Assembly: GCA_004211905.1 (NCBI GenBank)
Contig: SHBP01000001.1
Span: 317,589 to 381,588 of the forward strand
Length of the DNA stretch: 64,000 nucleotides
Source of the DNA: SAR92 clade bacterium
GTDB lineage: Bacteria; Pseudomonadota; Gammaproteobacteria; Pseudomonadales; Porticoccaceae
Direction of reading: 5' to 3'
Shown here: positions 21,429-54,765 of the stretch, piece by piece
How the letters are laid out: the number at the start of each line of letters is the position of its first letter
Numbering within the stretch: the stretch's first letter is position 1
Made by a program: the position numbers and the translations under genes
The notes under the pieces: model-generated
Databases searched by the model: none
What the model was told of the DNA's origin: nothing
The model's input: the letters and a program-made list of their open reading frames with translations, nothing else

Positions 21429-22616
21429 CTAGAGGCCTAAAAGAGCTTCAAAATTCTTTGAATAGAAACTGTCCAACTCCTCTGATGTCGCCTGCACGGC
21501 ATCAAGACTGCGTTCGAAGGCGCCGAACGGATCTTTGCCGCCCTCTGGATGTGGGTAATCTGTATTAAACATCAACATGTCCTTGCCAACATTACGCATA
21601 ACCCAGCCGGCATCCTCAAAATGCAGTGGCGTGGCTTTCACCTGGCGTTGCATATATTCAGAGGGCTTGAGTGATAGTTTTCTTAAGCCCAGATCAAATC
21701 TGCCTAATTCAGCTGCACCGATATCTAGATTTGACATACAAGCTGGCAACCAATTTGAGCCTAATTCAACTAAACCGATTTTAAGTTTAGGAAAGCGCTC
21801 AAGCACACCATCATAGATCATGCAGGCCAACCAACGCTCAATCGAATGGTGTAAAACCGGCAGATCTTTGGGCGAAGTGGTTTCAATATTCATTGACTCG
21901 GGAGCCAATTCTCGCTTTACACCAGTGTTGCGATAGTCATCGATCAATTTCGCGCCACTGCCAATATGCAAGGTAATTGGCACACCTGCTTCTTGTAACA
22001 CGGCCCAAATCGGGTCATATGCAATATGTGATGGTGCGCGACCATCCACTGCATCTGATGTCATCCAGAAGGCTTTAATACCTATCTTGATAGCTTTTTT
22101 AGCCTCCTGTAGAGCCTTGACTGGATCTCTTAACGACAGATATCCCACCGCTTGTAGTCGATCGCTATCGCTGGAGCAAAAATCGACCATAGCTCTATTC
22201 ATGGCATCACAACCACCCCATACGACCTTTTCGTCGTTAGATCGGGCAAAACGGGAAACAAACACCAAACCTGGGAATACCAGCTGCTTGTTAATTCCGG
22301 CGATATCCAATGCATCAGTGCGTTCGATATTATTCACCGCACCATAGGCGCCGATAATATTGCGCTTGCCTTCACTACCAAAAATATCTGATTTCAGATG
22401 CTCTGTCATGGCAGGGTCATTACCAGCGAGGCGGTTATGGGCCTGATCCACCAGCGGCTTGAGCTGTGGAACCTTTTCAACTCTGAAAAACGGCTCGTCT
22501 AAATTAGCCCTGACGTACTCCGACGCATAGCCTTCGATCCAACCGTCATACTCGGAAATATGGCTATCTGCGTCGTGAATTGTACGATTTACTTGATGTG
22601 CGCTTTGTTGATTCAT
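21429..22616 (-). CDS. Amidohydrolase_2-family metallohydrolase
   Basis: IHDADSH, LHIGSG, GVLERFPKLKIG..ELG, FNTDYPHPEG. Confidence 0.9.
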   Translation of the reverse strand: MNQQSAHQVNRTIHDADSHISEYDGWIEGYASEYVRANLDEPFFRVEKVPQLKPLVDQAHNRLAGNDPAMTEHLKSDIFGSEGKRNIIGAYGAVNNIERTDALDIAGINKQLVFPGLVFVSRFARSNDEKVVWGGCDAMNRAMVDFCSSDSDRLQAVGYLSLRDPVKALQEAKKAIKIGIKAFWMTSDAVDGRAPSHIAYDPIWAVLQEAGVPITLHIGSGAKLIDDYRNTGVKRELAPESMNIETTSPKDLPVLHHSIERWLACMIYDGVLERFPKLKIGLVELGSNWLPACMSNLDIGAAELGRFDLGLRKLSLKPSEYMQRQVKATPLHFEDAGWVMRNVGKDMLMFNTDYPHPEGGKDPFGAFERSLDAVQATSEELDSFYSKNFEALLGL

Positions 22617-22741: not shown

Positions 22742-24088
22742 TTAGTCCGTCAATGTGTCATAAACAAACTGTTGAGAAGTTTTTCTAAAGTCCGGATTTA
22801 CCGCTGGTGGTGGCTTTGGAAACTGCTGCACCATGCCAATAAAAAACAGATCATTCTTTGGGTCAATCCAAAACCAGGTGGACGCTGCCCCACCCCAAAA
22901 ATAAGAACCATCGCCATAACCTGATATCTCAGATGCCTCGCCCATGATGATGCCAAAGTTCAATCCAAAGCCAACTCTCTGACTGGTTGTGCCATTTAAA
23001 TTTCCAGTGGAATCGATTGTTTGCGAATCTGTCAGCACATTTTTAGCCATTAGATCTATACTTTTTTTGCTTAGAATTCGCACACCATCAAGTTGCCCGC
23101 CATTGAGCATCATTTGGCAAAAGCGAGCATAATCAGCCATGGTCGACACTAGGCCTCCGCCCCCTGACTCCATGCCCCGAGTCTCTTTGCGATAGGAGAT
23201 ATCCCCCAAAATATTAAACGCCGGATCTGCAAATGGCAGTGCTTGAAAGTTTTTTGTAACTGGATGGTAGCCAAACACATCCGCAAGTCGCTCGGCTTTC
23301 TCTGCTGGGACATAGAATGCCGTATCGACCATACCCAATGGCTTAAATATTTTTGACTGAAAAAAATCACCCAAGCTCATCCCGGAAATACGCTCAACGA
23401 TTGCGCCCTGCAAGTCTACTGACACCGAGTAAGCCCAGGCCGTTCCTGGTTGATGCATGAGCGGAATCGTGGCCACTGTATCGACCAGCGATTGTAAATC
23501 TGGTGAGGCTAAGACCGCTTTTTTTCTGAACTGCATATTGCTTGGATCAGCACCGCTAATGCCATAGCCAAACCCAGCAGTATGACTCATAAGTTCGCGG
23601 ATGGTTGGCTGACGTTGCAGGGGCTCTAACTCTACATTGCCTTCGAGGTCATAGCTCTTGACCACCTTTAGGTTCTCGAACTCAGGAATAAATTTAGACA
23701 CCGGATCATCCAAAGAAAATGCACCCTGTTCATGCAATATCATCATTGCGACACCGGTTATCGGCTTGCTCATAGAGTAAATACGATACATGCTATCCTG
23801 AGTAATAGGCTCTCCATTAAGCAGGTCACGAACACCGGCCTGTGTATAACTGGCAACTTTGCCATCACGCACTAAAAGTGTGGCAATACCCATGCTGTCA
23901 CCTTCGACCACAAATTGGCGCATGCGCGACTCAAGAGCGGCTATTTTTTCAACATCTACACCTGTCACTGCGGGGTTAGAGGTTAAATCTGGGAAGGCGG
24001 AACCGGTAATTTTTGTGCAGGCACTAAGGTTTACCACCAGCAATCCAGTTAATGTGGCAGTCTTGAGTCGGGTTAATCTATCTCTCAT
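22742..24088 (-). CDS. Serine hydrolase (beta-lactamase class C fold), predicted lipoprotein
   Basis: LSAC lipobox, YSMSK (SxxK), LMSHTAGF, PG..W.YS, GGGL.ST..DY.RF. Confidence 0.9.
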   Translation of the reverse strand: MRDRLTRLKTATLTGLLVVNLSACTKITGSAFPDLTSNPAVTGVDVEKIAALESRMRQFVVEGDSMGIATLLVRDGKVASYTQAGVRDLLNGEPITQDSMYRIYSMSKPITGVAMMILHEQGAFSLDDPVSKFIPEFENLKVVKSYDLEGNVELEPLQRQPTIRELMSHTAGFGYGISGADPSNMQFRKKAVLASPDLQSLVDTVATIPLMHQPGTAWAYSVSVDLQGAIVERISGMSLGDFFQSKIFKPLGMVDTAFYVPAEKAERLADVFGYHPVTKNFQALPFADPAFNILGDISYRKETRGMESGGGGLVSTMADYARFCQMMLNGGQLDGVRILSKKSIDLMAKNVLTDSQTIDSTGNLNGTTSQRVGFGLNFGIIMGEASEISGYGDGSYFWGGAASTWFWIDPKNDLFFIGMVQQFPKPPPAVNPDFRKTSQQFVYDTLTD

Positions 24089-24156: not shown

Positions 24157-26010
24157 TTATGGGGCGTACCAAATCGGTGAGGAATATGCGCGCTCCTGGA
24201 TTACCGCAGGACCTCGGTCAGGCTTAACCATGCCCAGTGCCAGCGCGTCAGCCAATGCGTGTCTTGGAGTTGGGATTTCAATAACTCGAACATAATAAAA
24301 TGCTGAAAGTTCGGGCTTAAAATCAGGATCTCGCCAAACCGTCGAAAGAAGTGGAGCACCTATAGAATTTGTATAGGTAGCCGTTTCCAAATTAACCGTG
24401 TTGCCTATGGCCGCTAGTTTTTTACCCGCACCCAAACGATCTTCTCCAGCCCAGACTACGTCATAGACCCTCTCAAACGACTGGCCTTGCGAATCAACCC
24501 AGCCTTTGATCACCTGTACCCGGTCAAGGTTAGCGCCTTTCGAATCACTGCCTGCGTGAATCAAAAAGCTAGGCGATTTGGCCCCTTTACGCTCAGGTAG
24601 ATCGCCCCCCATTGGCACACCCTTAGCATAGCCATTTCTCGGGTAGCGTTTATGACTGAGGTCTCGCTTGTTGAAATCCCAGCCGCCAAACACCCGCAAA
24701 AAGATACGCGGTCCACTGGTGGCATAAACCTCACGGCGCTTAAATGCCTGCATGATTGAGGTGCGATCATTGTAATCTGCCCAGACTGCCGCCAACCCCT
24801 GAGCTGCCATCGCCCAGCCACTTGTCGCATCAGGGCGATCAGGATTTATTAACTTTCTCTCTGGTGTACCATCCCTTGCCATCTTACCGTGAAAATTTTG
24901 CTCCTCTGCTGAAGCCATGCCTGTGTGTGCGTCTGTAGAACCAATCATGCCAAGCTTGTAGGGGTTGGTACCTAGCGCTTGCTCCAACTTGAGACCGCGT
25001 CGCAACCCACTGCGCAAGTAATCCCCTTGAAGCGCGTTATAGCCCTCGTTTTTAGCCTGAATGTGATAGGCGTAGGTTTCAAAATCGGCAAACTCATCAT
25101 TCGGTGACAAGCTAGAAATAGTCTCGCTATCGCCTTTGATTTGGGTGACTTCAGCTACTGGCTCCCATTTGGCTCGAAGTCTGGCATATTCCGCATCAAC
25201 CGGTACGTCCTTGATAGTAGTCTCGGGAAACATATAGCCTTTTGAAATATTGGAATTGTGCGGTATAGCAATGAACTCAGCATTGGTGGTTTTACTAACA
25301 TCTTCTAACCAATTCCACAGATCCTGTGGATAAGCGCTATCGCCCGTATCGAAGGGACGAAAGGTTTTAGCAGTTTGGGCATCAGCATCGGTAAAAACCA
25401 CGCGATGCAAATTTGCACCACCGGGGATCGGACTCCATTCCCACCCAATCATGGCGGTAAACTTTCCGGGCACGTTGTGCTTGTCGGCAAGATCCGCGGC
25501 CTCTTCCCATGCGGTACGTGCCATAAGTCGCGAATTGGGGATCGCCTCCTGATAGAGTTCCGTGGTTTTAGCTGAATTAACTGGGTCGCCATCGTATAGT
25601 TTGGCGATTCTCATCATCACCCTGTAAAAGGTATTGCTGTCGATAGATTCACGAATCAGCTTTTCCATGCTGTCTTTTTGCTTCAATTCTTCGCTATTAA
25701 GACCGTCTTCAGGAATACCCGAGTTATAAACAGTACGCATTACCCCTAAAAATTCTGCATGATCAGCAATGACTAAAAAGTCCAGCTTCTCTTGAATGCG
25801 GATTCTTGCTCTATGATAAGGGTGCACCACTGGCAGGCCCTTTGCGTAGCGATAAGCTGTGTCAACATCAGCCGATTGGTTGCCGCGAGGAAAGGCATCA
25901 AACGAATTTGATGTATGCACATGAGTATCACCCCATAAAAGCTCTCTAGCATGACTCATGACTGGTGCGCACAATAATCCGATCATCACCATTTGTAAGA
26001 GCGTCTTCAT
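24157..26010 (-). CDS. DUF3604 family protein (secreted, PHP-like)
   Basis: WGDTHVHTSNSFDA, LDFLVIADHAE, EWS..PGGANLHRVV, AIPHNSN.SKG.MF, E..QIKGDSE, IQERAYSSPIWY. Confidence 0.85.
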   Translation of the reverse strand: MKTLLQMVMIGLLCAPVMSHARELLWGDTHVHTSNSFDAFPRGNQSADVDTAYRYAKGLPVVHPYHRARIRIQEKLDFLVIADHAEFLGVMRTVYNSGIPEDGLNSEELKQKDSMEKLIRESIDSNTFYRVMMRIAKLYDGDPVNSAKTTELYQEAIPNSRLMARTAWEEAADLADKHNVPGKFTAMIGWEWSPIPGGANLHRVVFTDADAQTAKTFRPFDTGDSAYPQDLWNWLEDVSKTTNAEFIAIPHNSNISKGYMFPETTIKDVPVDAEYARLRAKWEPVAEVTQIKGDSETISSLSPNDEFADFETYAYHIQAKNEGYNALQGDYLRSGLRRGLKLEQALGTNPYKLGMIGSTDAHTGMASAEEQNFHGKMARDGTPERKLINPDRPDATSGWAMAAQGLAAVWADYNDRTSIMQAFKRREVYATSGPRIFLRVFGGWDFNKRDLSHKRYPRNGYAKGVPMGGDLPERKGAKSPSFLIHAGSDSKGANLDRVQVIKGWVDSQGQSFERVYDVVWAGEDRLGAGKKLAAIGNTVNLETATYTNSIGAPLLSTVWRDPDFKPELSAFYYVRVIEIPTPRHALADALALGMVKPDRGPAVIQERAYSSPIWYAP

Positions 26011-27039
26011 TTATAGACCCCCTCTTTTATCGTAGGCTTTGACTGAAAACGGGCCATCTAAATCCACAGGCTGACGCAAGGAAAAAATATTGCCATCAAC
26101 ATCGCGAGCATAGGCCTGAATAAAGCGGCCTAACTTGACCGGCGGACTAAAAAACTCAACTCCGAGCGCTTGGACTCGTTGATATTCCGCTTCGATATCA
26201 CTTACCTCCAGAGAAAATGAATAGCCTAGAGATGTTGGTTCTCGCTCTATCGTACTCTGCGGCGTGGGCGGATCTATAAACTGTAAAATTTCCATGACTT
26301 TGGACTGACGATTAAGTCTGAACCAGCCAATTTGTACCTTGGCATTATCAATATCAAACAGGTTGTCACCAAACTCACCTACCGGCACCTCGACTATTCT
26401 GTGGGGGTTGGTCTGAAAAACCTTTTGATAAAACTGCATCAGTCGATCCCTGTCAGGGGTGAACAGCGATACCTGAGACATCCAAATTGGCTTGTTATCC
26501 TTATCCCAATTGTCCAGATACCCCGCATGTTTCAACAATTGTTCGCCATCTAGCTCCTCCATTTCTAGAAGATTGCCCTCTGGATCATAGGCATAGACAT
26601 AGCTCACTCCATAGGTAGGGGAATACACAGGTTTGTCATGCCGATTCAAGAATCTGGCACCTTGGGCAGCAAACTTATCAAATAATGGCTGATCTTTAGG
26701 CGATTGATAACAGGTGTGTGACATGCCTGGCCCAATAACGGGCATATCAGTCAGAGTGACTGAGTCATTATGGGCAAATTCACTGAGCTCCAGAACCCAA
26801 TTCGGTGCTCGCAAAATCGCTGTCCGTACCTTTACATTGTCGCGAGCAAAGAGAATGTCGGCCGATGTATCATTTTCAAAGGATTCCTTATGGATCACCT
26901 CAAAACCAGTCGCTGCACTATAAAACTCCAATACCCTGTCAAGGTTTTGTACAGACAGACCAATGTGGTTCACTCCCTCAATATCTGTGGTGGAATCAAC
27001 CAGTACAGCATTGGGATCAAAGTCAAAATCTATAGTCAT
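26011..27039 (-). CDS. Double VOC/glyoxalase-domain protein
   Basis: NHIGLSVQNLDR..EFY, G.SHTC, YAYDPEGNLLE, YARDVDGNIFSLRQ. Confidence 0.8.
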   Translation of the reverse strand: MTIDFDFDPNAVLVDSTTDIEGVNHIGLSVQNLDRVLEFYSAATGFEVIHKESFENDTSADILFARDNVKVRTAILRAPNWVLELSEFAHNDSVTLTDMPVIGPGMSHTCYQSPKDQPLFDKFAAQGARFLNRHDKPVYSPTYGVSYVYAYDPEGNLLEMEELDGEQLLKHAGYLDNWDKDNKPIWMSQVSLFTPDRDRLMQFYQKVFQTNPHRIVEVPVGEFGDNLFDIDNAKVQIGWFRLNRQSKVMEILQFIDPPTPQSTIEREPTSLGYSFSLEVSDIEAEYQRVQALGVEFFSPPVKLGRFIQAYARDVDGNIFSLRQPVDLDGPFSVKAYDKRGGL

Positions 27040-27130
27040 TTCATAAGCCTCTTCTTTTTTGTAATTGTTAAAACGTCAATGACTGGATTTTTGCTGATTG
27101 CCGCCTGCGTCTGCTCATGGCAGTAGTCAA

Positions 27131-28348
27131 TCAGCCAAAATGTAATCGTCGATACTTGCCGCTAAAATATAAAAGTGGGTCACGGTGCGGTTCAAACTTT
27201 GCTCTCACCACTTCACCAATAAATATGGTGTGGTCACCCTGAATAATCATGTCTTTTTTTATGCATTCAAAACTCGCTAGCGATCCTTCAATAATCGGTA
27301 CATTTTGCTCCCAGGTACTCCAATCAATGTCTGCAAAACGATCAACCCCCTTAGAGGCAAATACATTTGAAGTAGACTGCTGCCCAGTATGTAACACATT
27401 AATACCAAATGATTTTTCAGCTCTAAAAGCATCTAGGCTGCCTACATGATTACCTAGACAAATTGATACTAACGGCGGGTCGAGAGAGACCGAACTAAAG
27501 GAATTGACTGTCAAGCCAATAGGTTTTTTCGTATCATCAAGCGTGGTTACCACAGTGATTCCAGTGACAAAACAACCCATTGCATCTCGCAGAGTTCGAG
27601 CGTCTGAGCCACTCACATATTGTAGTGGTTGATGGGGCACATGATTTTCTAAAAACTCTAATACCAGAGCACTGAATTCATCCCCCTTATCGAAAGCAAC
27701 ATAGTTGCCAGCCCCTTCAATTTCCGAGACTTCGGCTTGGGGAATTAATTTAGCGAAACGTTGCGTTGCGTCGGATGAACTTATTTGACTGTCGATACCG
27801 CGTACTAAAAGCGTGGGTAGTTTCAAGTTCTTGGCCGCGGGCTCAAGTTTGTTTTGCAATTTAATAAAATCGAAGCCACCTGCAAACAAACCTTGATCAA
27901 AATCCTCACTGGATGCTCGCTCGCTGACTGTTTTGGCAATACTTTTGTTGTTGAGGCTTTGGAACTCAGGCGGTGGATTGGTCAAAACCAGCCCAGTGGC
28001 AATGGGTGCGGAAGTATTACCCAATGCTGCTAAGCCGATCCAACCGCCAAAATTTGAGCCCACAACTACGGGACGAGACTCCAACTGAGCCAAAACTGCT
28101 ACCAAATCACCCATAAACGCATCTAGACTGTAATTGCAGTCCTTGGGACTATCACTGCCACCATGTCCTCGCAGATCTAAACTAATTACATAACGACCAG
28201 CCTGCGCTAGCGCCTTTGCCGCGCTCTCCCATACCTTGCGGGTCTGTGTTAGGCCAGGCAGCAAAACTACGCAGGGATGCTCTTCGCTACCGTACTCATC
28301 CGCAGTTAGCGCCACACCACCAACACCAATAAACTCTCTCATATTCAT
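27131..28348 (-). CDS. Alpha/beta-hydrolase-fold plus flavin-reductase fusion protein
   Basis: N-terminal DLRGHGGSD fold; C-terminal LRDAMGCFVTGITVVTT...GLTVNSFSSVSLDPPLV...GDHTIFIGEV. Start moved to 28348, right after the GST stop. Confidence 0.85.
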   Translation of the reverse strand: MNMREFIGVGGVALTADEYGSEEHPCVVLLPGLTQTRKVWESAAKALAQAGRYVISLDLRGHGGSDSPKDCNYSLDAFMGDLVAVLAQLESRPVVVGSNFGGWIGLAALGNTSAPIATGLVLTNPPPEFQSLNNKSIAKTVSERASSEDFDQGLFAGGFDFIKLQNKLEPAAKNLKLPTLLVRGIDSQISSSDATQRFAKLIPQAEVSEIEGAGNYVAFDKGDEFSALVLEFLENHVPHQPLQYVSGSDARTLRDAMGCFVTGITVVTTLDDTKKPIGLTVNSFSSVSLDPPLVSICLGNHVGSLDAFRAEKSFGINVLHTGQQSTSNVFASKGVDRFADIDWSTWEQNVPIIEGSLASFECIKKDMIIQGDHTIFIGEVVRAKFEPHRDPLLYFSGKYRRLHFG

Positions 28349-28349
28349 C

Positions 28350-28976
28350 CTACTGTTGGGTAAGTGCAGTAACGCTCGGTCGTGCCCCAACTGACTGGTA
28401 CCAGGCATTTAGATTGTCTAAACTCGACTCAGGTTTTAGGTCTACCATGGTACTAGCGAACTCAATCGCTGTATAAAGGGTAATATCGGCAATAGTAAAC
28501 CTATCACCTGCAACATAAGCATTCTGCCCAAACTCACGATCCAAGCGCTCAAAGTAATTGCGTGCCGCCACATCGCTGGCTGCCTTAGCTTCAGGTATCT
28601 GTTTGACCAACCCTAGTTGAGCAACGATTGGTCCATTTACCCAGGAGATACCGATTTCACGCCACATCTCGAACTCAATATGTCGATTTCTAGACTCAAT
28701 ATGGCCCAGCTCGAAAGGGCTGGCCCCAAGCAAATTTGGCTCTGGGAAGATGGCCTCTAAGTAGCGACAAATTGCCACAGACTCTGGAATACATCGGCCA
28801 TCTTCTAATTCGAGAACTGGAATTTTGCCACTGGGATTCTTCTTCAAAAACTCGGATGATTTGTGTTCTCCCCTACGCATATCACAGGCAACTAGTTCGA
28901 GCTCAATGCCCTTCTCGTTGGCAAATATTTTTACTCGCTTAGGATTTGGTGCATTCGGAAAATCATATAGTTTCAT
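28350..28976 (-). CDS. Glutathione S-transferase family protein
   Basis: APNPKRVKIF, NPSGKIPVLEL, ESVAICRYLE, GDRFTIADI. Confidence 0.9.
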   Translation of the reverse strand: MKLYDFPNAPNPKRVKIFANEKGIELELVACDMRRGEHKSSEFLKKNPSGKIPVLELEDGRCIPESVAICRYLEAIFPEPNLLGASPFELGHIESRNRHIEFEMWREIGISWVNGPIVAQLGLVKQIPEAKAASDVAARNYFERLDREFGQNAYVAGDRFTIADITLYTAIEFASTMVDLKPESSLDNLNAWYQSVGARPSVTALTQQ

Positions 28977-30317: not shown

Positions 30318-30923
30318 TTAGCTGTCGGTAACTACATAGGGAGCCGCGAACCCTCCCAGAATAAAACTGACGGTATTGTCAATCAAGCGCTGTCTGCTGC
30401 GTCCCGATCGATTCACTTTTTCAGCAGCGGCAATAGAAGCCGCGGAGCCCATGTAGAGGAGATGCTCTGCCTGCTCTAACGTCATCGTACGATTCTCTTC
30501 AATGACTCTCTCGATTAAAGTTCGACCAATCTCTTTGTGGTTCCTCTTTATCGTTTTAGCAACTGCCTCTCTTAGATCAGCCTGACTGAGCAGCACATCT
30601 CGTACATTTCCAGATTCAGATTGCTCAAAGTTAACCTCAACAAAGACTCTTACAAGTTCCTCAAAACTTTGAGTACTGGCTACTTTAGCCCTAATCTTCA
30701 AACGAAAATCTTCTAGTTCCCGCAACAAAAGCTCTTTAAAGATCTCTTGCCGGGAGTCGAAATATTTATAGACCAATGGGTTGCTCACACCGGCTGCCTT
30801 AGCCAGAGTCTCCATCGTAAATCCTGCAAATCCCATATCTTCGATAATTGCCGCTGCCGTGTCCAGAAGCTGTGATCGTCTTCCTTCCTTCGACAAACGG
30901 GTTCGAGGTTTTTGTGCCATCAA
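30318..30923 (-). CDS. TetR/AcrR-family regulator
   Basis: RTRLSKEGRRSQLLDTA...FTMETLAKAAGVSNPLVYKYF. Confidence 0.9.
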   Translation of the reverse strand: MMAQKPRTRLSKEGRRSQLLDTAAAIIEDMGFAGFTMETLAKAAGVSNPLVYKYFDSRQEIFKELLLRELEDFRLKIRAKVASTQSFEELVRVFVEVNFEQSESGNVRDVLLSQADLREAVAKTIKRNHKEIGRTLIERVIEENRTMTLEQAEHLLYMGSAASIAAAEKVNRSGRSRQRLIDNTVSFILGGFAAPYVVTDS

Positions 30924-30991: not shown

Positions 30992-32524
30992 TTATGTCGC
31001 CTTGGCTTTAGGCTGTTGTTGATTTCGCTTATGCTCTTCGATGCCAGCAATGATTTTGATATGCATGGAATGGGTCAAATGATATTTCCCATAAAAGAAT
31101 ACGGCGACAAACGACGCTATACCCATAATGGGCCCAGCCAGTATACCCATTCGAAATAACACGTCTGCGTCAACAGCTCCCGGAACCGCTAGCGATGGGA
31201 AACGAACAAATTTGTCCAGCCCTACGCCACCCACCAAGTGACCAAAGGAAAACGAAGCTTTAGCAAAAAAGGCTCTTGCAGAATAGAATAACCCTTCCTG
31301 GCGCAAACCTGTCTCCAACTCGTTTTCATCTACCACATCACCAATCATAGACATCATAGCGACAGCACCAAGGCCAATCACAAACGCGAATACGCCTGCG
31401 TTGCAGAGCAGCAGTGGTAGCAATGTAGCGCTATGATTGTCAGGCATTAAATCGAGCAATCTCAAATCCACAACCAGTTGAGCAGTAATCGCCATACAAA
31501 TCAGAGAGAAGATTACCACAGGCTTGCGATCGAACTTGCGCATTAACACAGGTGAAATTAAAGCACCAAATAAGGCACAGGGTGCCGACACTAGTCCAAA
31601 CCAGCGAATTTGTCCCGGCACGAGCTCCCAAAAGTAAGTGTTCATAAAAACACCTAAAGTATCGTAGATTCCGCTAGCAATCATAAAGAAAAAGTAACCG
31701 GCAAGTAGTACGACATAATTGCGGCACTTTAATGTGAGCAATATCTCTTTAAAGAAACCTTTAAAAGAGAGCGGTTGTTGCTTTGGTGGCTCGGATAGTG
31801 ATGGCACATGCTTATACGTGCCTGCAGCGGTAGTCCAAATCGCCACTAGAACCAAACTACAAGCTAACAATATCAAAGGAGCATAGGAGGCTGCATTTAA
31901 GTGCCCCGGAACTACCACGCCATCAACAGCTCTTATATGGTCGCCATCAAAGAATACGCCCCAAGCCAAAAATCCAAACAAGGCACCAGTTACATAGGAA
32001 AATGCAGAATTGGCACTAAACAATCTGGAACGTTGATTTTGGTTCTTTGACATTTCACCCCCCAGGGCGAGATGCGGAATTGAATAGAGTGTTAAGAATA
32101 CCCGACTAAAAATAGTGCAGGAGGCTAACCATGCGAACAGGACATAATTAGTGAAATTATCTACTTCATTCAGAATGGCTTCAGGCGGATTGAAAATTGC
32201 GTAGATTGCCAGCGCCAAGGGTATGGGCGCAGCAAATAGAAATGGATGTCGTCGTCCGTGCTTGGATTTCCATTTGTCTGAAATTATCCCAATCAATGGG
32301 TCGGTGATCGCATCAACCAGCAGGGCCACGAAGATCGCAATACCGATGAGGGTATTCGATAGTCCAATTACCTGGTTATAAAAAATAGTAATAAAGGTAT
32401 TGAACAGCCCCAAGTAAACTGCCTCACCTGCGGCCCCAATACCAAATGCGGCGACTGACCAACGAGATAGTTTTTCGTCGATCTTTGTTCTTAGACCAGT
32501 ATCCTGCGTCTTAATAGGAGTCAT
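30992..32524 (-). CDS. MFS transporter (GPH/MelB-like)
   Basis: DAITDPLIG.ISD....GRRHPF, IPHLALG.E, D..DENEL.TG.RQEG.F. Confidence 0.9.
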   Translation of the reverse strand: MTPIKTQDTGLRTKIDEKLSRWSVAAFGIGAAGEAVYLGLFNTFITIFYNQVIGLSNTLIGIAIFVALLVDAITDPLIGIISDKWKSKHGRRHPFLFAAPIPLALAIYAIFNPPEAILNEVDNFTNYVLFAWLASCTIFSRVFLTLYSIPHLALGGEMSKNQNQRSRLFSANSAFSYVTGALFGFLAWGVFFDGDHIRAVDGVVVPGHLNAASYAPLILLACSLVLVAIWTTAAGTYKHVPSLSEPPKQQPLSFKGFFKEILLTLKCRNYVVLLAGYFFFMIASGIYDTLGVFMNTYFWELVPGQIRWFGLVSAPCALFGALISPVLMRKFDRKPVVIFSLICMAITAQLVVDLRLLDLMPDNHSATLLPLLLCNAGVFAFVIGLGAVAMMSMIGDVVDENELETGLRQEGLFYSARAFFAKASFSFGHLVGGVGLDKFVRFPSLAVPGAVDADVLFRMGILAGPIMGIASFVAVFFYGKYHLTHSMHIKIIAGIEEHKRNQQQPKAKAT

Positions 32525-32607: not shown

Positions 32608-33768
32608 CTATGCCAAAGACATCAAGGCCTGCATGTTGCCATGATAAAACTTACTCATGGTGGCTTCATCACAGCCTTCCATTGTAGCTTCGAACTTGCT
32701 GATAGGATCTGACCCACCCTCTGGATGCGGATAGTCCGATGCGTAGCAAATCATATCCGGACTGGTATTTTCAATGATCCATCCAACGGGTTCACCGGCA
32801 AAGGGCGAAAACTTAAGACATCGTCTCGCTGTATCTGAGGGTTTTTCCACAAACTCTCGACGCGGCACATAAGCTCCGTAGGTAAAGTCTAGCGACTTTA
32901 GCCAGGATGGAACCCAAAATGCACCATGCTCCATACACATGCCTCGTAGACTGGGGTGACGATCAAAGACGCCGTCAAAAATTAGCGCCGACAGAAATAG
33001 TTCAGCCGAATTTTTTATCGTTATCAGACCGAGCTCGCCTGCAGGCGCATCGCCACCCAGCGCAATAGTATTCTTGCCATTGCGCTTAAAGCTTTTTGGC
33101 ACAGCTTCATAATGACCATTGGCGGCCACATGTATTCCAAAGGGTACCCTCTGCTCTACAAAACCTGCCCAGACAGGGTCAAAGTCTGGATGAGCAAAAC
33201 TAATCTTGTCATCGTTGGGCTCATTGGTGTCAATCATAAAGGTATAACAACCGTCATCGAAGCCCTGTTTCATTAGCTCCAGCGCCCTCTCTGGCCCTAG
33301 GGTATAGGGTAAATACCCAATGGCAAGCAAGCGATCATCATGGGCACAAAAGTCAGCCATAGCCTTATTTAGGGTACGAGCGCCTGCATAGAGTGCGTCC
33401 ATATCACCCACATGGGCCACCTGATGAAATGAGAAAGTGGGTAGCACCCATTGCTTCTCATAACCAAACAGATCCAGTGCATGGGAGCGCTCTTGAGGGT
33501 CAAATGCGCCAATTCGGGACCAACCACCCAGGTTGTTGCTGACAATAATATCCTCGCATTCTTGCTTAACGGTGGCATCATGCTTGCGCCGCTCGAACAG
33601 CTCTACGCCGTCATCATATTTTTGCCTATCAATTGGTAGCTCTGTTTGATCATCCATTTTTTGCAGCAGTTCTATATCAGCTTCTCTGGCCGCCTTTATT
33701 AGAAAGTCATCTAGCTCTATAACATGACTGTCGGCATCAATGATCTTGCGGTGTTGTGCGTAACTCAT
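32608..33768 (-). CDS. Amidohydrolase_2-family metallohydrolase
   Basis: IDADSH, GVFDRHP.L, YASDYPHPEG. Confidence 0.9.
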   Translation of the reverse strand: MSYAQHRKIIDADSHVIELDDFLIKAAREADIELLQKMDDQTELPIDRQKYDDGVELFERRKHDATVKQECEDIIVSNNLGGWSRIGAFDPQERSHALDLFGYEKQWVLPTFSFHQVAHVGDMDALYAGARTLNKAMADFCAHDDRLLAIGYLPYTLGPERALELMKQGFDDGCYTFMIDTNEPNDDKISFAHPDFDPVWAGFVEQRVPFGIHVAANGHYEAVPKSFKRNGKNTIALGGDAPAGELGLITIKNSAELFLSALIFDGVFDRHPSLRGMCMEHGAFWVPSWLKSLDFTYGAYVPRREFVEKPSDTARRCLKFSPFAGEPVGWIIENTSPDMICYASDYPHPEGGSDPISKFEATMEGCDEATMSKFYHGNMQALMSLA

Positions 33769-33836: not shown

Positions 33837-34991
33837 CTACAAATCTAAACTTTCTGTCAGATGCTGGTGGAAATTAACAATCGCTTTTTCAAAGTAGCCA
33901 AAGGTCAAATGGCTATTGGCTTGGGCTGTTACCGTCTGCTGAATTAAGCAGGCCGCTTCTCGGTCTTCATCCTGGCCTGATTCATTAACAAACTGGGCAT
34001 CTTTTTTAACATCCTCAAGAGAAATTGGGTTCTCAGAAGTTTGTTCAGGGGTTACCAAATAAATCACCATCTGAGTGCTACTGGGGCTCAGTGGCTCCAT
34101 AATAGTCAAGTTTGAATGTTTGGATAGTACTGAGACACTAGCATTGGGAAAAAGATGGTAGACAGAGGTCAGCATCCCTGCAGCTCTGCGCTTTTCTGCA
34201 GGCACATCTCGTAACTTTTCAATGCGTCGGAAAGGAAAAGTTACTCGAGCATTAGCACCGTATGTCTCGACCAAATTGACATTATCTAAGCCATAGGGGA
34301 AGAACGACTTCCTATGCAGTGATTTAATATGGTAGCCCTCTAGGAGAGTTTCGGTTAACAACTTCCAATTGGCTGGGTCTGTATTTTCTGACTGTTTAAA
34401 CAGCTCCTGCTCGGGAGTAAAATAGTCACGGCTATTTTCTAGCATCTGTGGACTGATGGTTCCCTCCTGCATCACATAGACAAGACCGCCCTTTTCCATA
34501 GCGCTTACCTCCACCAGACTGTGATCTTCAATGTCAAGACCAGGAAATCCCTCTTCACCAGGGATAAATTTGAGTGAACCATCAAGGCCGTAAAACCAAG
34601 CATGATAGGGGCAGACAAAGCCATTAGCGCGTCCAGTACCACTAGCTATTTGCATACCACGATGCCGACAAGCATTAATAAAAGCTCTAACCTTGCCATC
34701 TTTCCCACGTGCTACTACCAGTGGGGTACCCGCCGATTTGCGAGCAATATAGCTCCCTTGTTCGGGTAGCGCCGCGGAGGGGCAAAAGGGTATTGGCAGA
34801 CTGCGCAATAGCGCTATTTCAGCATCAAATCGCTCTTGGGAATGATAGTTTTCAACAGGTTCTTGCCAAACAGTATCACCAAGGTCAGTTGTGCCATTAT
34901 CGATATGGGTAAAGACTCTCTCTATCGCCTCCTGGTCATTTAAAAGTGACACGGTCGGAATAATATTGGACTCTGGTTCTGAAGATGACAT
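33837..34991 (-). CDS. Rieske non-heme iron oxygenase, alpha subunit
   Basis: NACRHRG...CPYHAW Rieske ligands; NWK...E..LEGYH...LH mononuclear Fe site. Confidence 0.9.
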   Translation of the reverse strand: MSSSEPESNIIPTVSLLNDQEAIERVFTHIDNGTTDLGDTVWQEPVENYHSQERFDAEIALLRSLPIPFCPSAALPEQGSYIARKSAGTPLVVARGKDGKVRAFINACRHRGMQIASGTGRANGFVCPYHAWFYGLDGSLKFIPGEEGFPGLDIEDHSLVEVSAMEKGGLVYVMQEGTISPQMLENSRDYFTPEQELFKQSENTDPANWKLLTETLLEGYHIKSLHRKSFFPYGLDNVNLVETYGANARVTFPFRRIEKLRDVPAEKRRAAGMLTSVYHLFPNASVSVLSKHSNLTIMEPLSPSSTQMVIYLVTPEQTSENPISLEDVKKDAQFVNESGQDEDREAACLIQQTVTAQANSHLTFGYFEKAIVNFHQHLTESLDL

Positions 34992-42716: not shown

Positions 42717-43373
42717 ATGAGTAAAACCGACGCGACCAAGAAAACCCGAACCCGGCTATCGCCAAAAGCCAGAAAAAATATGATTCTGGACTGTGCGGCC
42801 AAGCTTGTGGCAGGGGAAGGTGTGTCAGCAGTAACTATGGAGCGTTTAGGTTCTGAAGCAGAAATCAGTAAGGCGTTGGTGTACAACTACTTCCCCAGCG
42901 TTAAATTGCTTTTACAAACATTATTAACGCGCGAATATCGTCATCTACGTAGAGTCCAGCTGGAAGCAGCTGAAAGCGCAGAGACACTGGAGCAAATGGT
43001 CCGCCGGGTCACTAAGGTATATCTCTCCTACATCAGCGATCGCGGACTTATCATTGAACGTCTATCCCTGGAGCCCTCTGTGGCCAATAGTGGCGACCCC
43101 AACAAATATGGTCGAGGTCCAGCGGTAAACTATCTCGCCGAAATACTCTGTGACAACTTCAATATAGACATGGAAGTGGCTAGAGCTACAGTAGACATCT
43201 CCTATGGCATGCCAACCGCTGCAGGTCAATATCTTATCCATAACGACATCAACCTGCAGACGATAGAAGATATTACTGTGGCCATGATTTTGGGTAGCTA
43301 TCAGGCTATTCAGAAAAGATACGAGACCTCTCTAAAAACCCTACTCAAACGCCCTCGTAATAAAGCCGTCTAA
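42717..43373 (+). CDS. TetR/AcrR-family regulator
   Basis: RTRLSPKARKNMILDCA...VTMERLG.EA.ISKALVYNYF. Confidence 0.9.
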   Translation: MSKTDATKKTRTRLSPKARKNMILDCAAKLVAGEGVSAVTMERLGSEAEISKALVYNYFPSVKLLLQTLLTREYRHLRRVQLEAAESAETLEQMVRRVTKVYLSYISDRGLIIERLSLEPSVANSGDPNKYGRGPAVNYLAEILCDNFNIDMEVARATVDISYGMPTAAGQYLIHNDINLQTIEDITVAMILGSYQAIQKRYETSLKTLLKRPRNKAV

Positions 43374-43604
43374 ACAGGTTAGTGGCAGCTTGATACGATC
43401 TCCGATACCGTCTTAATAATCACGCAGGCAGCAGCACAATGCTATTGACCAGAAGCTGAATAAAAGCCGAGGGTTGAGGTCTTTGGAGCTATTGCAACGA
43501 TAAAAGCGGCCTTGGCAAAGACAAGAAAGCGAGCTGGGAGCATTAAAAATTCGCCTATTATTTTTGCACTGCCACTTTCGACAATCTCACTTGGCAGTGG
43601 TCAG

Positions 43605-44699: not shown

Positions 44700-44723
44700 A
44701 AGGATTTCCGTAACAGTTAAGGT

Positions 44724-54192: not shown

Positions 54193-54434
54193 AATGATCT
54201 TGGTCTCAACTATTTGTGATTGTTAAAAAGAGTAATGGGGTCAGCTTTCTCTGTTCCTGTTCTATTTCTTGTCTTTACCAGGGAACTTTTAAACTTTTCT
54301 ACCTGCGCCAGGTAAACAGATATCTTCTATCGAGAAGCGTCAAGAAATTGTTCAATCGATCAAAGGGGTAATACAATCGGGAGACGTGATAACTTTTTAG
54401 CCTAGCCTTTACCCTTTACCTCTACTTGATACCT

Positions 54435-54640
54435 TCAACCTTTTTGCTTTAACTCAGATATCACCTGCTCATCGGTCAGCAGATATGGCAGACATTCAAA
54501 AACACCAAGACTGACGAGCTCATTCTGCGCTACAGAGACCAATCCACCTTGATTATCAACCGATTACACTGGCACAAAATCATGACTGTCGTTATCAAGG
54601 CCAGGTAACCCACGTTCATGACTTACATACTCTAACCGGC
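54435..54640 (-). pseudogene. Possible decayed gene 3' end
   Basis: Protein-like frame LEYVSHERGLPGLDNDSHDFVPV*SVDNQGGLVSVAQNELVSLGVFECLPYLLTDEQVISELKQKG* with one internal TAA; family not recognised. Confidence 0.25.
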
Positions 54641-54765
54641 CACCGAATCGGAGCGTGCAAACCAGAGTATACAAGCTACTCTTTATTATAGATACCCTAC
54701 AATAGCGCTCTTCATCTAAACGCTCCGCTACAGTATTTCCCCTAGCATCTCGATGGGTCCACCCA

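What the first reader, a model, noticed from the sequence alone, without database searches (positions are those of the whole stretch)
27131..28348. Pseudo-hydrolase fused to a flavin reductase: both catalytic residues replaced by Asn
Seen: the nucleophile elbow reads G-S-N-F-G-G (GGC TCA AAT TTT GGC) instead of G-x-S-x-G, and the catalytic-His motif reads GAGNYV (GGC AAC TAT) instead of GAGH. The cap region looks short, while the C-terminal flavin-reductase domain appears intact and the frame is open. Inference: a catalytically dead hydrolase fold retained as a ligand-binding or scaffolding domain that could gate flavin reduction. No partner flavin monooxygenase is visible in the window.
Basis: partly seen in the sequence, partly recalled or inferred. 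Interest (0 to 1): 0.6.

Follow-up and report, generated by a model that had tools for sequence, protein, structure and literature searches.

The report
Dead-hydrolase flavin reductase beside diiron oxygenases
This gene joins an intact NAD(P)H:flavin reductase to a hydrolase-like domain that has lost every catalytic residue yet is still under selection, and it sits among mis-annotated PtmU3-type diiron oxygenases that have no known electron donor, so it may be their missing reductase.

Summary
Window 27131-28348 (minus strand) encodes a 405-aa protein with an alpha/beta-hydrolase fold (aa ~1-240) and a full PF01613 flavin-reductase domain (aa 257-402). Asn occupies the nucleophile (N99) and His (N215) positions. 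In addition, the acid position is Ser (S187), the oxyanion 'HG' is 'PG', and the cap is short (54 aa against 84-97).

This is not a private decaying allele. The fusion family is large. A tree shows stepwise erosion from a canonical site (HG/Ser/Asp/His) to P-N-S-N. The catalytic columns evolve like ordinary positions, while new invariant Arg/Gln/Glu residues and a rigid linker appear. dN/dS is ~0.1 in both halves. Only His->Asn (CAC->AAC) is recent.

New here: the 'amidohydrolase' genes near the fusion (three in this window) carry the complete signature of PtmU3-type high-potential diiron oxygenases (AROs), a class with no known reductase. Every fusion of this clade with known context has such an ARO within 5 kb, sometimes 42-67 nt away. 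The reverse does not hold for all AROs.

Most likely this is a flavin reductase with a repurposed, non-catalytic hydrolase-fold module, possibly the AROs' electron donor (~0.4). The scan noted a Ser-type member of the family on other DNA (e1-4209274).

The parts
27131..28348 (-). Fusion gene (405 aa): alpha/beta-hydrolase-fold pseudo-hydrolase domain plus PF01613 flavin reductase domain
   Evidence: ORF and translation; Pfam; AlphaFold model and Foldseek
27629..28348 (-). Alpha/beta-hydrolase-fold domain (aa 1-240) with all catalytic features lost: P31 (oxyanion 'HG' His), N99 (nucleophile), S187 (acid), N215 (His)
   Evidence: Alignment to 1a8q; family alignments; secondary structure of the model
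28052..28054 (-). Codon AAT = N99 at the nucleophile-elbow apex (G-S-N-F-G-G)
   Evidence: Asn in all relatives of 76 % identity or more, Thr in the sister clade, Ser in more distant members
27704..27706 (-). Codon AAC = N215 at the catalytic-His position; CAC (His) in the four closest genomes
   Evidence: the same Asn is seen in P0003 and in metagenome contig L090
27815..27979 (-). Shortened cap/lid region (aa 124-178, 54 residues, lower model confidence)
   Evidence: Cap is 84-97 aa in the ~445-aa and ~580-aa fused forms and in the split A. venetianus hydrolase; pLDDT 59-74
27581..27655 (-). Conserved interdomain linker (aa 232-256: F232, E234, P238, P242-E-Y, G247-S-D, R251, R254); the canonical outgroup has a gap here
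   Evidence: Per-column conservation and parsimony counts
27143..27580 (-). Flavin reductase domain (aa 257-402), intact
   Evidence: PF01613 E 2.7e-42 over the full profile; 41-45 % identity to 3rh7 and SgcE6; 38 positions with at most one change on the family tree
28350..28976 (-). Glutathione S-transferase; its stop codon lies one base before the fusion's ATG (probable translational coupling)
   Evidence: conserved next to the fusion in L001-L007 and L110
29034..30062 (-). CurA-like NADPH-dependent enone reductase (ADH_N_2 / MDR family)
   Evidence: 385 bits, below the 440-bit cut-off
30318..30923 (-). TetR-family regulator
30992..32524 (-). MFS_2 (GPH-type) transporter
32608..33768 (-). 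ARO-b: PF04909 protein with the complete dinuclear-oxygenase signature (DSH at aa 13, DYPHPE at aa 345)
   Evidence: signature as defined in PMC13154177
33837..34991 (-). Rieske oxygenase alpha subunit, with no reductase or ferredoxin in the window
26011..27039 (-). Tandem VOC/glyoxalase-fold protein directly downstream of the fusion
24157..26010 (-). DUF3604 protein
22742..24088 (-). Beta-lactamase-fold esterase-like protein (AcmB-like)
21429..22616 (-). ARO-a: PtmU3-type dinuclear oxygenase (DSH at aa 17, DYPHPE at aa 353); last gene of the apparent operon that contains the fusion
   Evidence: Best solved relative PtmU3 6omp, E 6e-20; motifs; invariant metal ligands; orthologues lie beside the fusion in L004-L007, G463 and L110
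60325..61503 (+). ARO-c: third PtmU3-type dinuclear oxygenase (59 % identical to ARO-a; DSH at aa 17, DYPHPE at aa 350), flanked by MFS_2 (58283-59758, minus strand) and TetR (61558-62151, minus strand)

Best explanation
The gene encodes a two-domain protein. Its C-terminal half is a working short-chain NAD(P)H:flavin oxidoreductase (PF01613). Its N-terminal half is an alpha/beta-hydrolase fold that no longer hydrolyses anything but has been repurposed and is maintained by selection.

Shown: the fold of both domains; the loss of all four catalytic features (oxyanion His, nucleophile Ser, acid Asp, catalytic His); the stepwise, family-wide nature of that loss; purifying selection on both halves; the appearance of new invariant charged residues (Q35, R37, R52, R60, R92, R183, E206, E209) and of a rigid linker; and the conserved co-location with PtmU3-type diiron 'amidohydrolase-related dinuclear oxygenases' (AROs).

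Inferred: the reductase half oxidises NAD(P)H and hands reduced flavin, or electrons from bound flavin, to the oxygenases of its own cluster. The candidates are above all the high-potential diiron AROs (ARO-a in the same apparent operon, ARO-b and ARO-c nearby), which have no ferredoxin or reductase of their own. The hydrolase-like half would then act as a non-catalytic binding module, either docking onto the oxygenase or sensing a pathway metabolite, so that NAD(P)H is not wasted.

My odds for the sub-claims: non-hydrolytic and maintained 0.85; active flavin reductase 0.8; electron donor to the neighbouring AROs 0.4; alpha/beta domain as docking or sensing module 0.35.
For: Architecture and fold.

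Loss of the catalytic site: N99, S187, N215 and P31 fall on the canonical positions.

Not decay: omega is 0.08-0.16 for the alpha/beta half and 0.07-0.18 for the reductase half among the window, L001-L003 and L007.

Family-wide erosion: in 211 fused homologues the nucleophile column is S103/T69/N14/G12, the acid column S141/G25/D18/N15, and the His column H130/L43/Q13/R7/N2. The rooted tree gives HSDH > HSSH > PSSH > PTSH > PNSH > PNSN. These columns change 11-24 times, the 22nd-46th percentile of the domain, whereas R52, D58, R60 and R92 never change.

New constraints: ingroup-specific invariant residues and the linker are absent from the canonical-triad outgroup.

ARO identity of the neighbours: ARO-a's best solved relative is PtmU3, E 6e-20. 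D-x-H and D-x-P-H-x-E are present in all three window genes and in all 29 PF04909-type neighbours clustered across the 80 related loci. All seven ligand positions are invariant. Gamma1 = Ser and gamma4 = Pro/Ala place them in the high-potential diiron class, whose neighbourhoods largely lack Rieske ferredoxins.

Co-location: 23 of 80 loci have such an ARO within 7 kb, against an expected ~2-3 %. The ARO is on the same strand 42-67 nt upstream in L005, L006, L028 and L110, and 204 nt upstream in G463. In 401 alphaproteobacterial genomes the two best ARO hits are the two that abut the only two full-length fusions. Divergence of the fusion and of its adjacent ARO is congruent (Mantel r 0.60, 0 of 5000 permutations).

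No alternative donor: there is no ferredoxin, FNR-type reductase or other Fe-S motif in the window or in the ARO-bearing loci.

The genome's other PF01613 reductase has its own ACAD-fold neighbour.
Against: No biochemical test of any kind was possible.

The association is asymmetric. Several ARO-a/ARO-c relatives with 8 kb of flank on both sides have no fusion nearby (L094, L099, L107, L108, L111), and 57 of 80 fusion loci have no ARO within 7 kb. The link could therefore be at pathway level only.

Loci are phylogenetically related, so the binomial and Mantel figures overstate independence.

PF01613 reductases classically serve flavin-dependent monooxygenases, and none has been shown to serve an ARO. 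No paper in the library connects the two.

Most members of the sister clade keep His215, and many family members keep Ser plus His, so some members may retain chemistry.

One metagenome contig carrying the same N/N allele has a 2-nt deletion that frameshifts the reductase domain (L090).
Confidence: 0.55

Rival explanations
1. It is a generic flavin or quinone reductase in an electrophile/xenobiotic detoxification cluster. The TetR-controlled set of CurA-like enone reductase, GST, the fusion and a glyoxalase-fold protein would deal with quinones, enones or oxo-aldehydes. The reductase half would reduce quinones or free flavin, and the AROs would simply be other enzymes of the same catabolic island.
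For: The GST stop codon lies one base from the fusion's start, and the GST is conserved beside the fusion in L001-L007 and L110. A CurA-like reductase (385 bits), a GST and a tandem VOC flank the fusion. The fusion family is found in varied catabolic contexts such as CoA ligase, thiolase-like, CoA-transferase and HPPD genes.
Against: In G463 the GST, TetR and MFS genes are absent, yet the ARO-fusion pair is still adjacent. The VOC protein shows no similarity to the hydroquinone dioxygenases PcpA/LinE. The model gives no role to the conserved pseudo-hydrolase domain.
Confidence: 0.2
2. It is the reductase component of a classical two-component flavin-dependent monooxygenase encoded elsewhere in the genome (for example an ACAD-fold group-D oxygenase), as in HsaAB, HpaBC and RutAF. 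The hydrolase-like half would be a relic of an ancestral RutD/HsaD-type pathway hydrolase.
For: NCBIfam's nearest models are FerA, HsaB, the HPA-hydroxylase reductase, StyB and RutF, with RutD, PcaD and HsaD for the N-terminal half, all below their cut-offs. Canonical-triad relatives occur as a split pair next to an LLM monooxygenase on an A. venetianus plasmid. An A. vitis plasmid operon has the fusion alongside an ACAD-family gene and VOC genes. The genome has 14 PF08028 matches.
Against: No LLM- or HpaB-type monooxygenase was found in the 91 %-complete genome. No ACAD-fold gene lies in the window. The genome's stand-alone PF01613 reductase already sits beside an ACAD-fold gene. No flavin monooxygenase recurs beside the fusion in the 80 loci.
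Confidence: 0.15
3. The alpha/beta domain is still an enzyme. It would use other residues, or perform non-hydrolytic chemistry that does not need the Ser-His-Asp triad (for example lyase, isomerase, decarboxylase or cofactor-independent oxygenase-type chemistry), or it would use the neighbouring Ser98.
For: The pocket-lining region gains invariant Q35, R37 and R183. Ser98 is conserved in the Thr/Asn clade as G-S-[TN]. Most members of that clade keep His215. Alpha/beta folds are known to support non-hydrolytic reactions (general knowledge).
Against: Ser98 is the last residue of the strand, not the elbow apex, and lacks the small residues at -2 and +2. His215 itself is replaced in this protein. 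No polar residue at any canonical catalytic position is conserved across the family.
Confidence: 0.12
4. This allele is on its way to becoming a pseudogene: the His->Asn change is one more step of decay and the gene no longer matters.
For: N215 is private to the window, P0003 and L090. L090 carries a 2-nt deletion that frameshifts the reductase domain.
Against: The frame is open over 405 codons. Omega between the window and its closest relative L003 is 0.16 and 0.18 for the two halves, with no sign of relaxation. The nucleophile had been lost long before, in a clade that has kept the gene across Gamma- and Alphaproteobacteria. RNA-seq libraries from three studies hold contigs covering the gene. 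L090 is a single old assembly and may contain an error.
Confidence: 0.05

Closest known systems
Short-chain NAD(P)H:flavin oxidoreductases of PF01613 (HpaC, PheA2, SgcE6, HsaB, RutF, FerA)
   Same: The C-terminal 150 residues match the whole profile (E 2.7e-42) and are 41-45 % identical to 3rh7 and SgcE6. The family's conserved flavin-binding stretch (G-L-T-x-N-S-F-x-S-V-S-L-D-P-P) and the G-D-H motif are invariant.
   Different: It carries a 240-residue N-terminal alpha/beta-fold domain. It scores below every NCBIfam equivalog cut-off. No flavin-dependent monooxygenase partner is nearby.
C1 reductase component of Acinetobacter baumannii p-hydroxyphenylacetate 3-hydroxylase (PDB 5zc2/5zyr)
   Same: It is a PF01613 reductase with an extra domain, and it appears among the structural and sequence hits. 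In C1 the extra domain is autoinhibitory and the substrate HPA stimulates NADH oxidation (Sucharitakul 2005 and Phongsak 2012, as listed in the references of PMC6165268). This is the precedent for a ligand-gated flavin reductase.
   Different: In C1 the extra domain is C-terminal and not an alpha/beta hydrolase fold; here it is N-terminal and hydrolase-derived. Gating has not been tested here.
ABHD5/CGI-58 and other alpha/beta-hydrolase pseudoenzymes
   Same: An alpha/beta-hydrolase fold whose catalytic serine has been inactivated and which works by binding and activating a partner instead of hydrolysing (PMC/bioRxiv 10.1101/2025.05.06.652485). That Asn replaces the serine in ABHD5 is my recollection.
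   Different: ABHD5 is a eukaryotic, stand-alone protein that keeps its His and Asp. Here all four catalytic features are gone, and the domain is covalently fused to a redox enzyme in bacteria.
Canonical-triad hydrolase/flavin-reductase pairs and fusions (the ~580-aa fused forms; the split pair on A. venetianus plasmid CP060162 next to an LLM monooxygenase; RutD/RutF-like logic)
   Same: The same two domains in the same order, forming the outgroup of the family tree. They show what the ancestor looked like: HG, G-H-S-M-G-G, Asp, R-H and a cap of ~85-90 residues.
   Different: Those proteins keep a complete catalytic site and accompany a flavin-dependent (LLM) monooxygenase. The window's clade has lost the site, shortened the cap, gained a new linker and new invariant residues, and sits beside diiron AROs.
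Electron-transfer partners of amidohydrolase-related dinuclear oxygenases (AibG Rieske ferredoxin + AibF reductase for AibH1H2; SfbR for SfbO)
   Same: The proposed role is the same: bringing NAD(P)H electrons to a TIM-barrel dinuclear oxygenase encoded in the same cluster (PMC7782822, PMC10811679, PMC13154177).
   Different: The known partners are a Rieske ferredoxin plus an FMN/2Fe-2S reductase, and they go with low-potential AROs. The AROs here are of the high-potential PtmU3/DitZ type, for which the papers report that Rieske partners are largely absent. A PF01613 reductase has not been proposed for them.

Membership tests
Alpha/beta-hydrolase fold superfamily (structural membership) | Sequence profile match and the beta-sheet/helix core with a strand-turn-helix 'elbow' | tested here: met
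   Abhydrolase_1 at 71.8 bits (cut-off 25.8) and Abhydrolase_6; model plus Foldseek E ~1e-17 to esterases and haloperoxidases
Catalytically competent serine alpha/beta-hydrolase | Nucleophile Ser (or Cys/Asp) at the elbow apex in G-x-S-x-G | tested here: not met
   Asn99 aligns with Ser98 of 1a8q and sits at the elbow apex in the model
Catalytically competent serine alpha/beta-hydrolase | Catalytic His after the last core strand | tested here: not met
   Asn215 aligns with His257 of 1a8q; the closest relatives have CAC (His) at this codon
Catalytically competent serine alpha/beta-hydrolase | Acid (Asp/Glu) after strand beta7 | tested here: not met
   Ser187 aligns with the triad Asp (GDDD). 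The column is Ser in 141 of 211 family members and Asp only in the outgroup and a few others
Catalytically competent serine alpha/beta-hydrolase | Oxyanion-hole 'HG' motif after strand beta3 | tested here: not met
   The protein reads L-L-P-G. Pro is found in 48 of 48 members of the Thr/Asn clade and His in 9 of 9 outgroup members. The oxyanion hole is formed by backbone amides, so this loss alone is not decisive
PF01613 flavin reductase family | Full-length match above the gathering score, with conserved flavin/NAD(P)H-site motifs | tested here: met
   144.9 bits (cut-off 27) over profile positions 1-152 of 153; 38 positions with at most one change on the family tree
PF01613 flavin reductase family | NAD(P)H-dependent reduction of FMN/FAD | not testable with these tools
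   Needs purified protein
Named equivalogs HsaB, RutF, FerA, StyB, HpaC (reductase half) and PcaD, RutD, HsaD, MenH (hydrolase half) | Score above NCBIfam's curated cut-off | tested here: not met
   Best scores are 131 bits against cut-offs of 230-260 (reductases) and 68-70 bits against 255-390 (hydrolases)
Amidohydrolase-related dinuclear oxygenases (AROs), applied to the neighbours ARO-a, ARO-b and ARO-c | N-terminal D-x-H motif on strand beta1 | tested here: met
   DSH at aa 17, 13 and 17; D17 and H19 are invariant in alignment A2
Amidohydrolase-related dinuclear oxygenases (AROs), applied to the neighbours ARO-a, ARO-b and ARO-c | C-terminal D-x-P-H-x-[DE] motif with at least ~200 residues before it | tested here: met
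   DYPHPE at aa 353, 345 and 350; the motif definition comes from PMC13154177
Amidohydrolase-related dinuclear oxygenases (AROs), applied to the neighbours ARO-a, ARO-b and ARO-c | The remaining metal ligands (mid-barrel His and Glu) | tested here: met
   H217 and E284 are invariant and correspond to AibH2 His211 and Glu265
High-potential (diiron) ARO subclass | Gamma1 hydrophilic, gamma4 non-aromatic, gamma2 Phe/Tyr | tested here: inconclusive
   Gamma1 = Ser and gamma4 = Pro/Ala are met. Gamma2 was not mapped. The nearest solved relatives are PtmU3 and DitZ
Amidohydrolase-related dinuclear oxygenases (AROs) | Dinuclear Fe/Mn cofactor and O2-dependent oxygenation | not testable with these tools
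   Needs metal analysis and an enzyme assay
Ligand-gated flavin reductase of the C1-HPAH type | An accessory domain that inhibits NADH oxidation until an effector binds | not tested
   Only the presence of an accessory domain and of a conserved linker is shown. The accessory domain has a different fold and lies at the other end of the protein

The most novel reading that the evidence does not exclude
The pseudo-hydrolase/flavin-reductase fusion is the dedicated, so far unrecognised redox partner of a subgroup of high-potential PtmU3-type diiron oxygenases (AROs). The PF01613 half would reduce the diferric cofactor, directly or through reduced flavin. The catalytically dead alpha/beta domain would be the adaptor that docks on the TIM-barrel oxygenase, or that senses its substrate. 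This would be a new type of multicomponent oxygenase, built from a recycled hydrolase.
Probability: 0.35. Interest if true: 0.8.

Novelty: new variant of a known kind. Interest (0 to 1): 0.62.

Why it matters
There are three reasons.

First, the family records pseudoenzyme evolution in bacteria unusually clearly. One fold, fused to one partner domain, can be followed from a canonical Ser-Asp-His hydrolase with a long cap to a form with none of the catalytic residues and a short cap. Over the same path, selection shifts onto a new set of Arg, Gln and Glu residues and a new linker.

Second, databases call these proteins 'alpha/beta fold hydrolase' and their neighbours 'amidohydrolase'. Both names mislead anyone annotating pathways in marine Porticoccaceae, Sphingomonadales and Hyphomonadaceae.

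Third, about 12,000 predicted high-potential diiron AROs (PMC13154177) have no known physiological electron donor, because the Rieske ferredoxins that accompany the low-potential class are largely missing from their neighbourhoods. A reductase gene that repeatedly abuts such AROs is a directly testable candidate. It could allow these C-H-hydroxylating enzymes to be reconstituted with NAD(P)H instead of artificial reductants.

Tried and rejected
Context comes only from the search for related loci, the genome search and plasmid records.
- Complex prediction on the two halves (reductase aa 245-405 against alpha/beta aa 1-240) returned 'no answer' with score 0.00. This is no evidence either way. 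It used the single job, so the fusion could not be tested against ARO-a.
- The idea that GST plus tandem VOC marks a (chloro)hydroquinone pathway (LinD/LinE, PcpC/PcpA) found no support. The VOC protein has only weak hits to small glyoxalase-fold proteins and methylmalonyl-CoA epimerase.
- The A. vitis pAt operon looked like an HsaABCD-type set with an ARO, but its 'amidohydrolase' lacks D-x-P-H-x-[DE], so it is not counted as an ARO link.
- Luciferase-like and HpaB-type monooxygenases were sought in the genome and not found, in a genome that is 91 % complete.
- A literature search for 'DitZ' returned only unrelated papers. Searches combining flavin reductase, hydrolase, fusion and pseudoenzyme found no description of this family.
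- Read laying worked from contigs only.
- Ser98 as a register-shifted nucleophile was considered and judged unlikely: it is at the end of the strand and the flanking residues are not small.
- My first reverse-association script missed the fusion in L090 because of that contig's frameshift. This was corrected.
Full report
**What is there.** The finding's coordinates hold one open reading frame on the minus strand, 27131-28348, encoding 405 residues. Its ATG lies one base after the TAG stop codon of the upstream glutathione S-transferase gene. A longer start at 28408 would overlap that gene, and homologues of 403-409 residues support the shorter form. Pfam finds an alpha/beta-hydrolase fold at residues 25-225 and a complete Flavin_Reduct domain (PF01613) at 257-402, E 2.7e-42. 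NCBIfam's nearest models are FerA, HsaB, the HPA-hydroxylase reductase, StyB and RutF for the C-terminal half and PcaD, RutD and HsaD for the N-terminal half, all far below their cut-offs.

The protein reads G-S-N-F-G-G at residues 97-102 and G-A-G-N-Y-V at 212-217.
- Bromoperoxidase A1 (1a8q) is the best solved relative of the N-terminal half. In the alignment to it, N99 falls on the nucleophile Ser, N215 on the catalytic His, and S187 on the triad Asp.
- An AlphaFold model built on 30 homologues (pLDDT 83.3, pTM 0.76) places N99 between strand 94-98 and helix 100-111, the classical nucleophile elbow. S187 comes after strand 179-184 and N215 after strand 205-210.
- Foldseek matches the first half to esterases, haloperoxidases and meta-cleavage-product hydrolases, and the second half to SgcE6, 3rh7 and the C1 reductase of HPAH.

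**It is not a private accident.** The fusion is a large family: more than 1,700 database hits, and at least 580 loci among species-representative genomes. The window's closest relatives are Porticoccaceae MAGs (82-94 %). Most other members are Sphingomonadales, Hyphomonadaceae and other Alphaproteobacteria.

I aligned 211 non-identical fused homologues. The columns read as follows:

| Position | Residues observed |
|---|---|
| Nucleophile | S103, T69, N14, G12 |
| Acid | S141, G25, D18, N15 |
| His | H130, L43, Q13, R7, N2 |
| 'HG' His | H134, P75 |

Distant fused forms of about 580 residues, and a split hydrolase/reductase gene pair on an Acinetobacter venetianus plasmid, keep a textbook site (HG, G-H-S-M-G-G, Asp, R-H) and a long cap.

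A tree was built without the four catalytic columns and rooted on those canonical forms. Along the lineage to the window it gives the order HSDH, HSSH, PSSH, PTSH, PNSH, PNSN. Within the ~405-450-residue ingroup the four columns change 11-24 times by parsimony, which is the 22nd-46th percentile of the domain. R52, D58, R60 and R92 never change. So the catalytic positions are not under catalytic constraint anywhere in this subfamily.

**It is not decaying either.** Among the window and its four closest genomic relatives, dN/dS is 0.08-0.16 for the alpha/beta half and 0.07-0.18 for the reductase half. The ingroup has acquired near-invariant residues that the canonical outgroup lacks:
- Q35 and R37 directly after the oxyanion loop
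- R52, R60, R92-P93 and W103
- R183, four residues before the acid position
- E206 and E209
- a conserved linker (E234, P238, P242-E-Y, G247-S-D, R251) where the outgroup has a gap

This is the pattern of a repurposed domain. Asn at the nucleophile is shared by all relatives of 76 % identity or more. His-to-Asn is one recent C-to-A change (CAC in L001, L002, L003 and L007; AAC here), also seen in P0003 and in contig L090. L090 additionally has a 2-nt deletion that frameshifts the reductase domain. It is a single old assembly, so this may be an error, but I record it as a caveat.

**The surroundings change the question.** That is correct: none is in the window, and no luciferase-like or HpaB-type enzyme was found in the 2.28-Mb, 91 %-complete genome. 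The genome's other PF01613 reductase sits beside its own ACAD-fold gene.

The most recurrent neighbour of the fusion is a PF04909 'amidohydrolase'. The copy at 21429-22616 has PtmU3 (6omp, E 6e-20) and DitZ (8uyr) as solved relatives. These are not hydrolases. They are amidohydrolase-related dinuclear oxygenases (AROs), defined by an N-terminal D-x-H and a C-terminal D-x-P-H-x-D/E motif (PMC13154177; PMC10811679).

Three genes in the window carry both motifs:

| Gene | Coordinates | Strand |
|---|---|---|
| ARO-a | 21429-22616 | - |
| ARO-b | 32608-33768 | - |
| ARO-c | 60325-61503 | + |

All 29 PF04909-type neighbours clustered across the 80 related loci carry the C-terminal motif as well. 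All seven metal-ligand positions are invariant in their alignment, matching the ligands listed for AibH2 and PtmU3 (PMC7782822). With gamma1 = Ser and gamma4 = Pro/Ala they fall in the high-potential diiron class (PtmU3, DitZ). For that class the authors report that the Rieske ferredoxins accompanying low-potential AROs are 'largely absent'. The word 'flavin' does not occur in that paper, and no paper in the library links PtmU3 or AROs to a flavin reductase.

**Strength of the link.**
- Of 80 fusion loci, 23 have such an ARO within 7 kb. Genomes of 3.3-4.6 Mb have only 5-7 PF04909 genes of any kind, so about 2-3 % would be expected by chance.
- Arrangements differ between lineages:
  - The ARO is directly upstream on the same strand, with a 42-67 nt gap, in Kordiimonas (L005/G001), Hyphomonas (L006), L028 and metagenome contig L110, and with a 204 nt gap in G463.
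  - The two genes are divergent, with a GntR regulator between them, in a dozen Sphingomonadales and Hyphomonadaceae loci.
  - They lie in the same apparent operon 4.5 kb apart in the window's lineage.
- In 401 sampled alphaproteobacterial genomes the full-length fusion occurs in two and ARO-family genes in 78. The two best ARO hits of the whole sample are the ones abutting the two fusions.
- Divergence of the fusion and of its adjacent ARO is correlated (Mantel r 0.60, 0 of 5000 permutations), as expected for a co-inherited module. Shared species history contributes to this figure.
- None of the ARO-bearing loci, nor the window, has a small Rieske protein, a plant-type ferredoxin or an FNR-type reductase. 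The only Fe-S motif in the window is the Rieske centre of the oxygenase at 33837-34991.

**Limits of the link.** The association is asymmetric. Starting from the ARO side in metagenome contigs, the window's own lineage shows full synteny (L090, L091) and L110 has the adjacent pair. But orthologues of ARO-c, and two ARO-a relatives (L094 and L095, 71-74 %, sitting with TetR, a Rieske oxygenase and MFS_2), have no fusion within up to 8 kb. In addition, 57 of the 80 fusion loci have no ARO nearby, many of them with quite different neighbours such as phytase, 4HBT thioesterase, HPPD, and ppk/ppx. One reductase serving several oxygenases would explain this: the window's genome has one fusion and three AROs. 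So would a looser, pathway-level association.

**Most likely mechanism.**
- Shown: an intact PF01613 domain, a hydrolase fold without a catalytic site, selection on both, and co-location with diiron AROs.
- Inferred: the reductase half oxidises NAD(P)H and passes reducing equivalents, as reduced flavin or from bound flavin, to the cluster's oxygenases. High-potential AROs have Em' of about +190 to +240 mV, so reduction by a reduced flavin is thermodynamically easy. From memory, E. coli flavin reductase Fre reducing the diferric centre of ribonucleotide reductase R2 is a precedent.
- The role of the alpha/beta domain is the weakest step. The new invariant Arg, Gln and Glu residues around the former active site, together with the fixed linker, suggest that it binds an anionic ligand or a partner surface. 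The C1 reductase of HPAH shows that an accessory domain can gate a PF01613 reductase. ABHD5 shows that a serine-less alpha/beta fold can work purely by binding.

**Expression.** Contigs from RNA-seq libraries of three marine studies cover the operon at 97-99 % identity. One contig spans 25422-30062 and another spans 27126-28933. This is consistent with expression but is not proof of it.

**Verdict.** The gating idea is untested. The protein is a new variant of known kinds: a flavin reductase and an alpha/beta pseudoenzyme. The more interesting possibility is that it is the missing reductase of a subgroup of PtmU3-type oxygenases. That rests on genomic association only, and I give it about 0.35-0.4. 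The scan had already noted a Ser-type member of this fusion family on another genome (e1-4209274).

Noticed in passing
window 21429-22616 (-), 32608-33768 (-), 60325-61503 (+): Three PF04909 genes that would be annotated 'amidohydrolase' carry the full ARO (dinuclear oxygenase) signature of the PtmU3 type (DSH ... DYPHPE). Three of the genome's seven PF04909 genes lie in this one window. Each sits near an MFS_2 transporter and a TetR regulator.
   Followed up: yes
window 33837-34991 (-) with 32608-33768 (-): A full-length Rieske oxygenase alpha subunit lies 68 nt upstream of ARO-b, with no beta subunit, ferredoxin or reductase in the window. Relatives L094 and L095 also pair a Rieske oxygenase (62 %) with an ARO-a-like gene, TetR and MFS_2. 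Whether the Rieske protein and the ARO cooperate is unknown.
   Followed up: partly
L090:2271-3580: A metagenome contig of the window's lineage (ARO-a 98 % identical) carries the same N99/N215 allele, but it has a 2-nt deletion (AATGTATTT -> AATATTT) that frameshifts the reductase domain near residue 329. This is either an assembly error or a genuinely broken allele.
   Followed up: partly
proteins P0122-P0155 (about 430-453 aa) and P0170-P0270 (about 564-599 aa): Two further architectural classes of the fusion exist. The ~445-aa forms have a cap of ~93 residues and very degenerate sites (for example Gly or Leu at the nucleophile and Pro, Gly or Asp at the His position). The ~580-aa forms have a fully canonical triad and an extra C-terminal extension after the reductase domain.
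   Followed up: partly
L083 (A. venetianus plasmid CP060162) 1096-5381: A split version: a canonical-triad alpha/beta hydrolase, then 4 nt later a 313-aa flavin reductase, then an LLM flavin-dependent monooxygenase and an aldehyde dehydrogenase. This Rut-like arrangement probably resembles the ancestral context of the fusion.
   Followed up: partly
window 42717-46640: A second TetR regulator (42717-43373, +) lies next to a second tandem VOC/glyoxalase-fold gene (43605-44699, -) and a PQQ-dependent dehydrogenase with an N-terminal cytochrome c domain (44724-46640, -). This partly repeats the gene types of the cluster around the fusion.
   Followed up: no
window 52966-57360: A 2OG-Fe(II) oxygenase-family gene (52966-54192, -) and a GH2 glycosidase (54766-57360, -) lie just upstream of the MFS_2 / ARO-c / TetR trio. 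This hints that the substrates of that cluster may be glycosides or sugar-derived compounds.
   Followed up: no
genome contig C15:973-3057 (L082): The genome's only other PF01613 reductase (176 aa, stand-alone) lies next to an ACAD-fold gene of 390 aa. This is a likely classical two-component (HsaA/HsaB-like) pair.
   Followed up: partly
window 49025-52947 (+): Two ABC exporter-type genes (transmembrane plus ATPase domains). The longest ORFs overlap by about 190 nt (49025-50986 and 50794-52947), so the true start of the second gene is probably further downstream.
   Followed up: no
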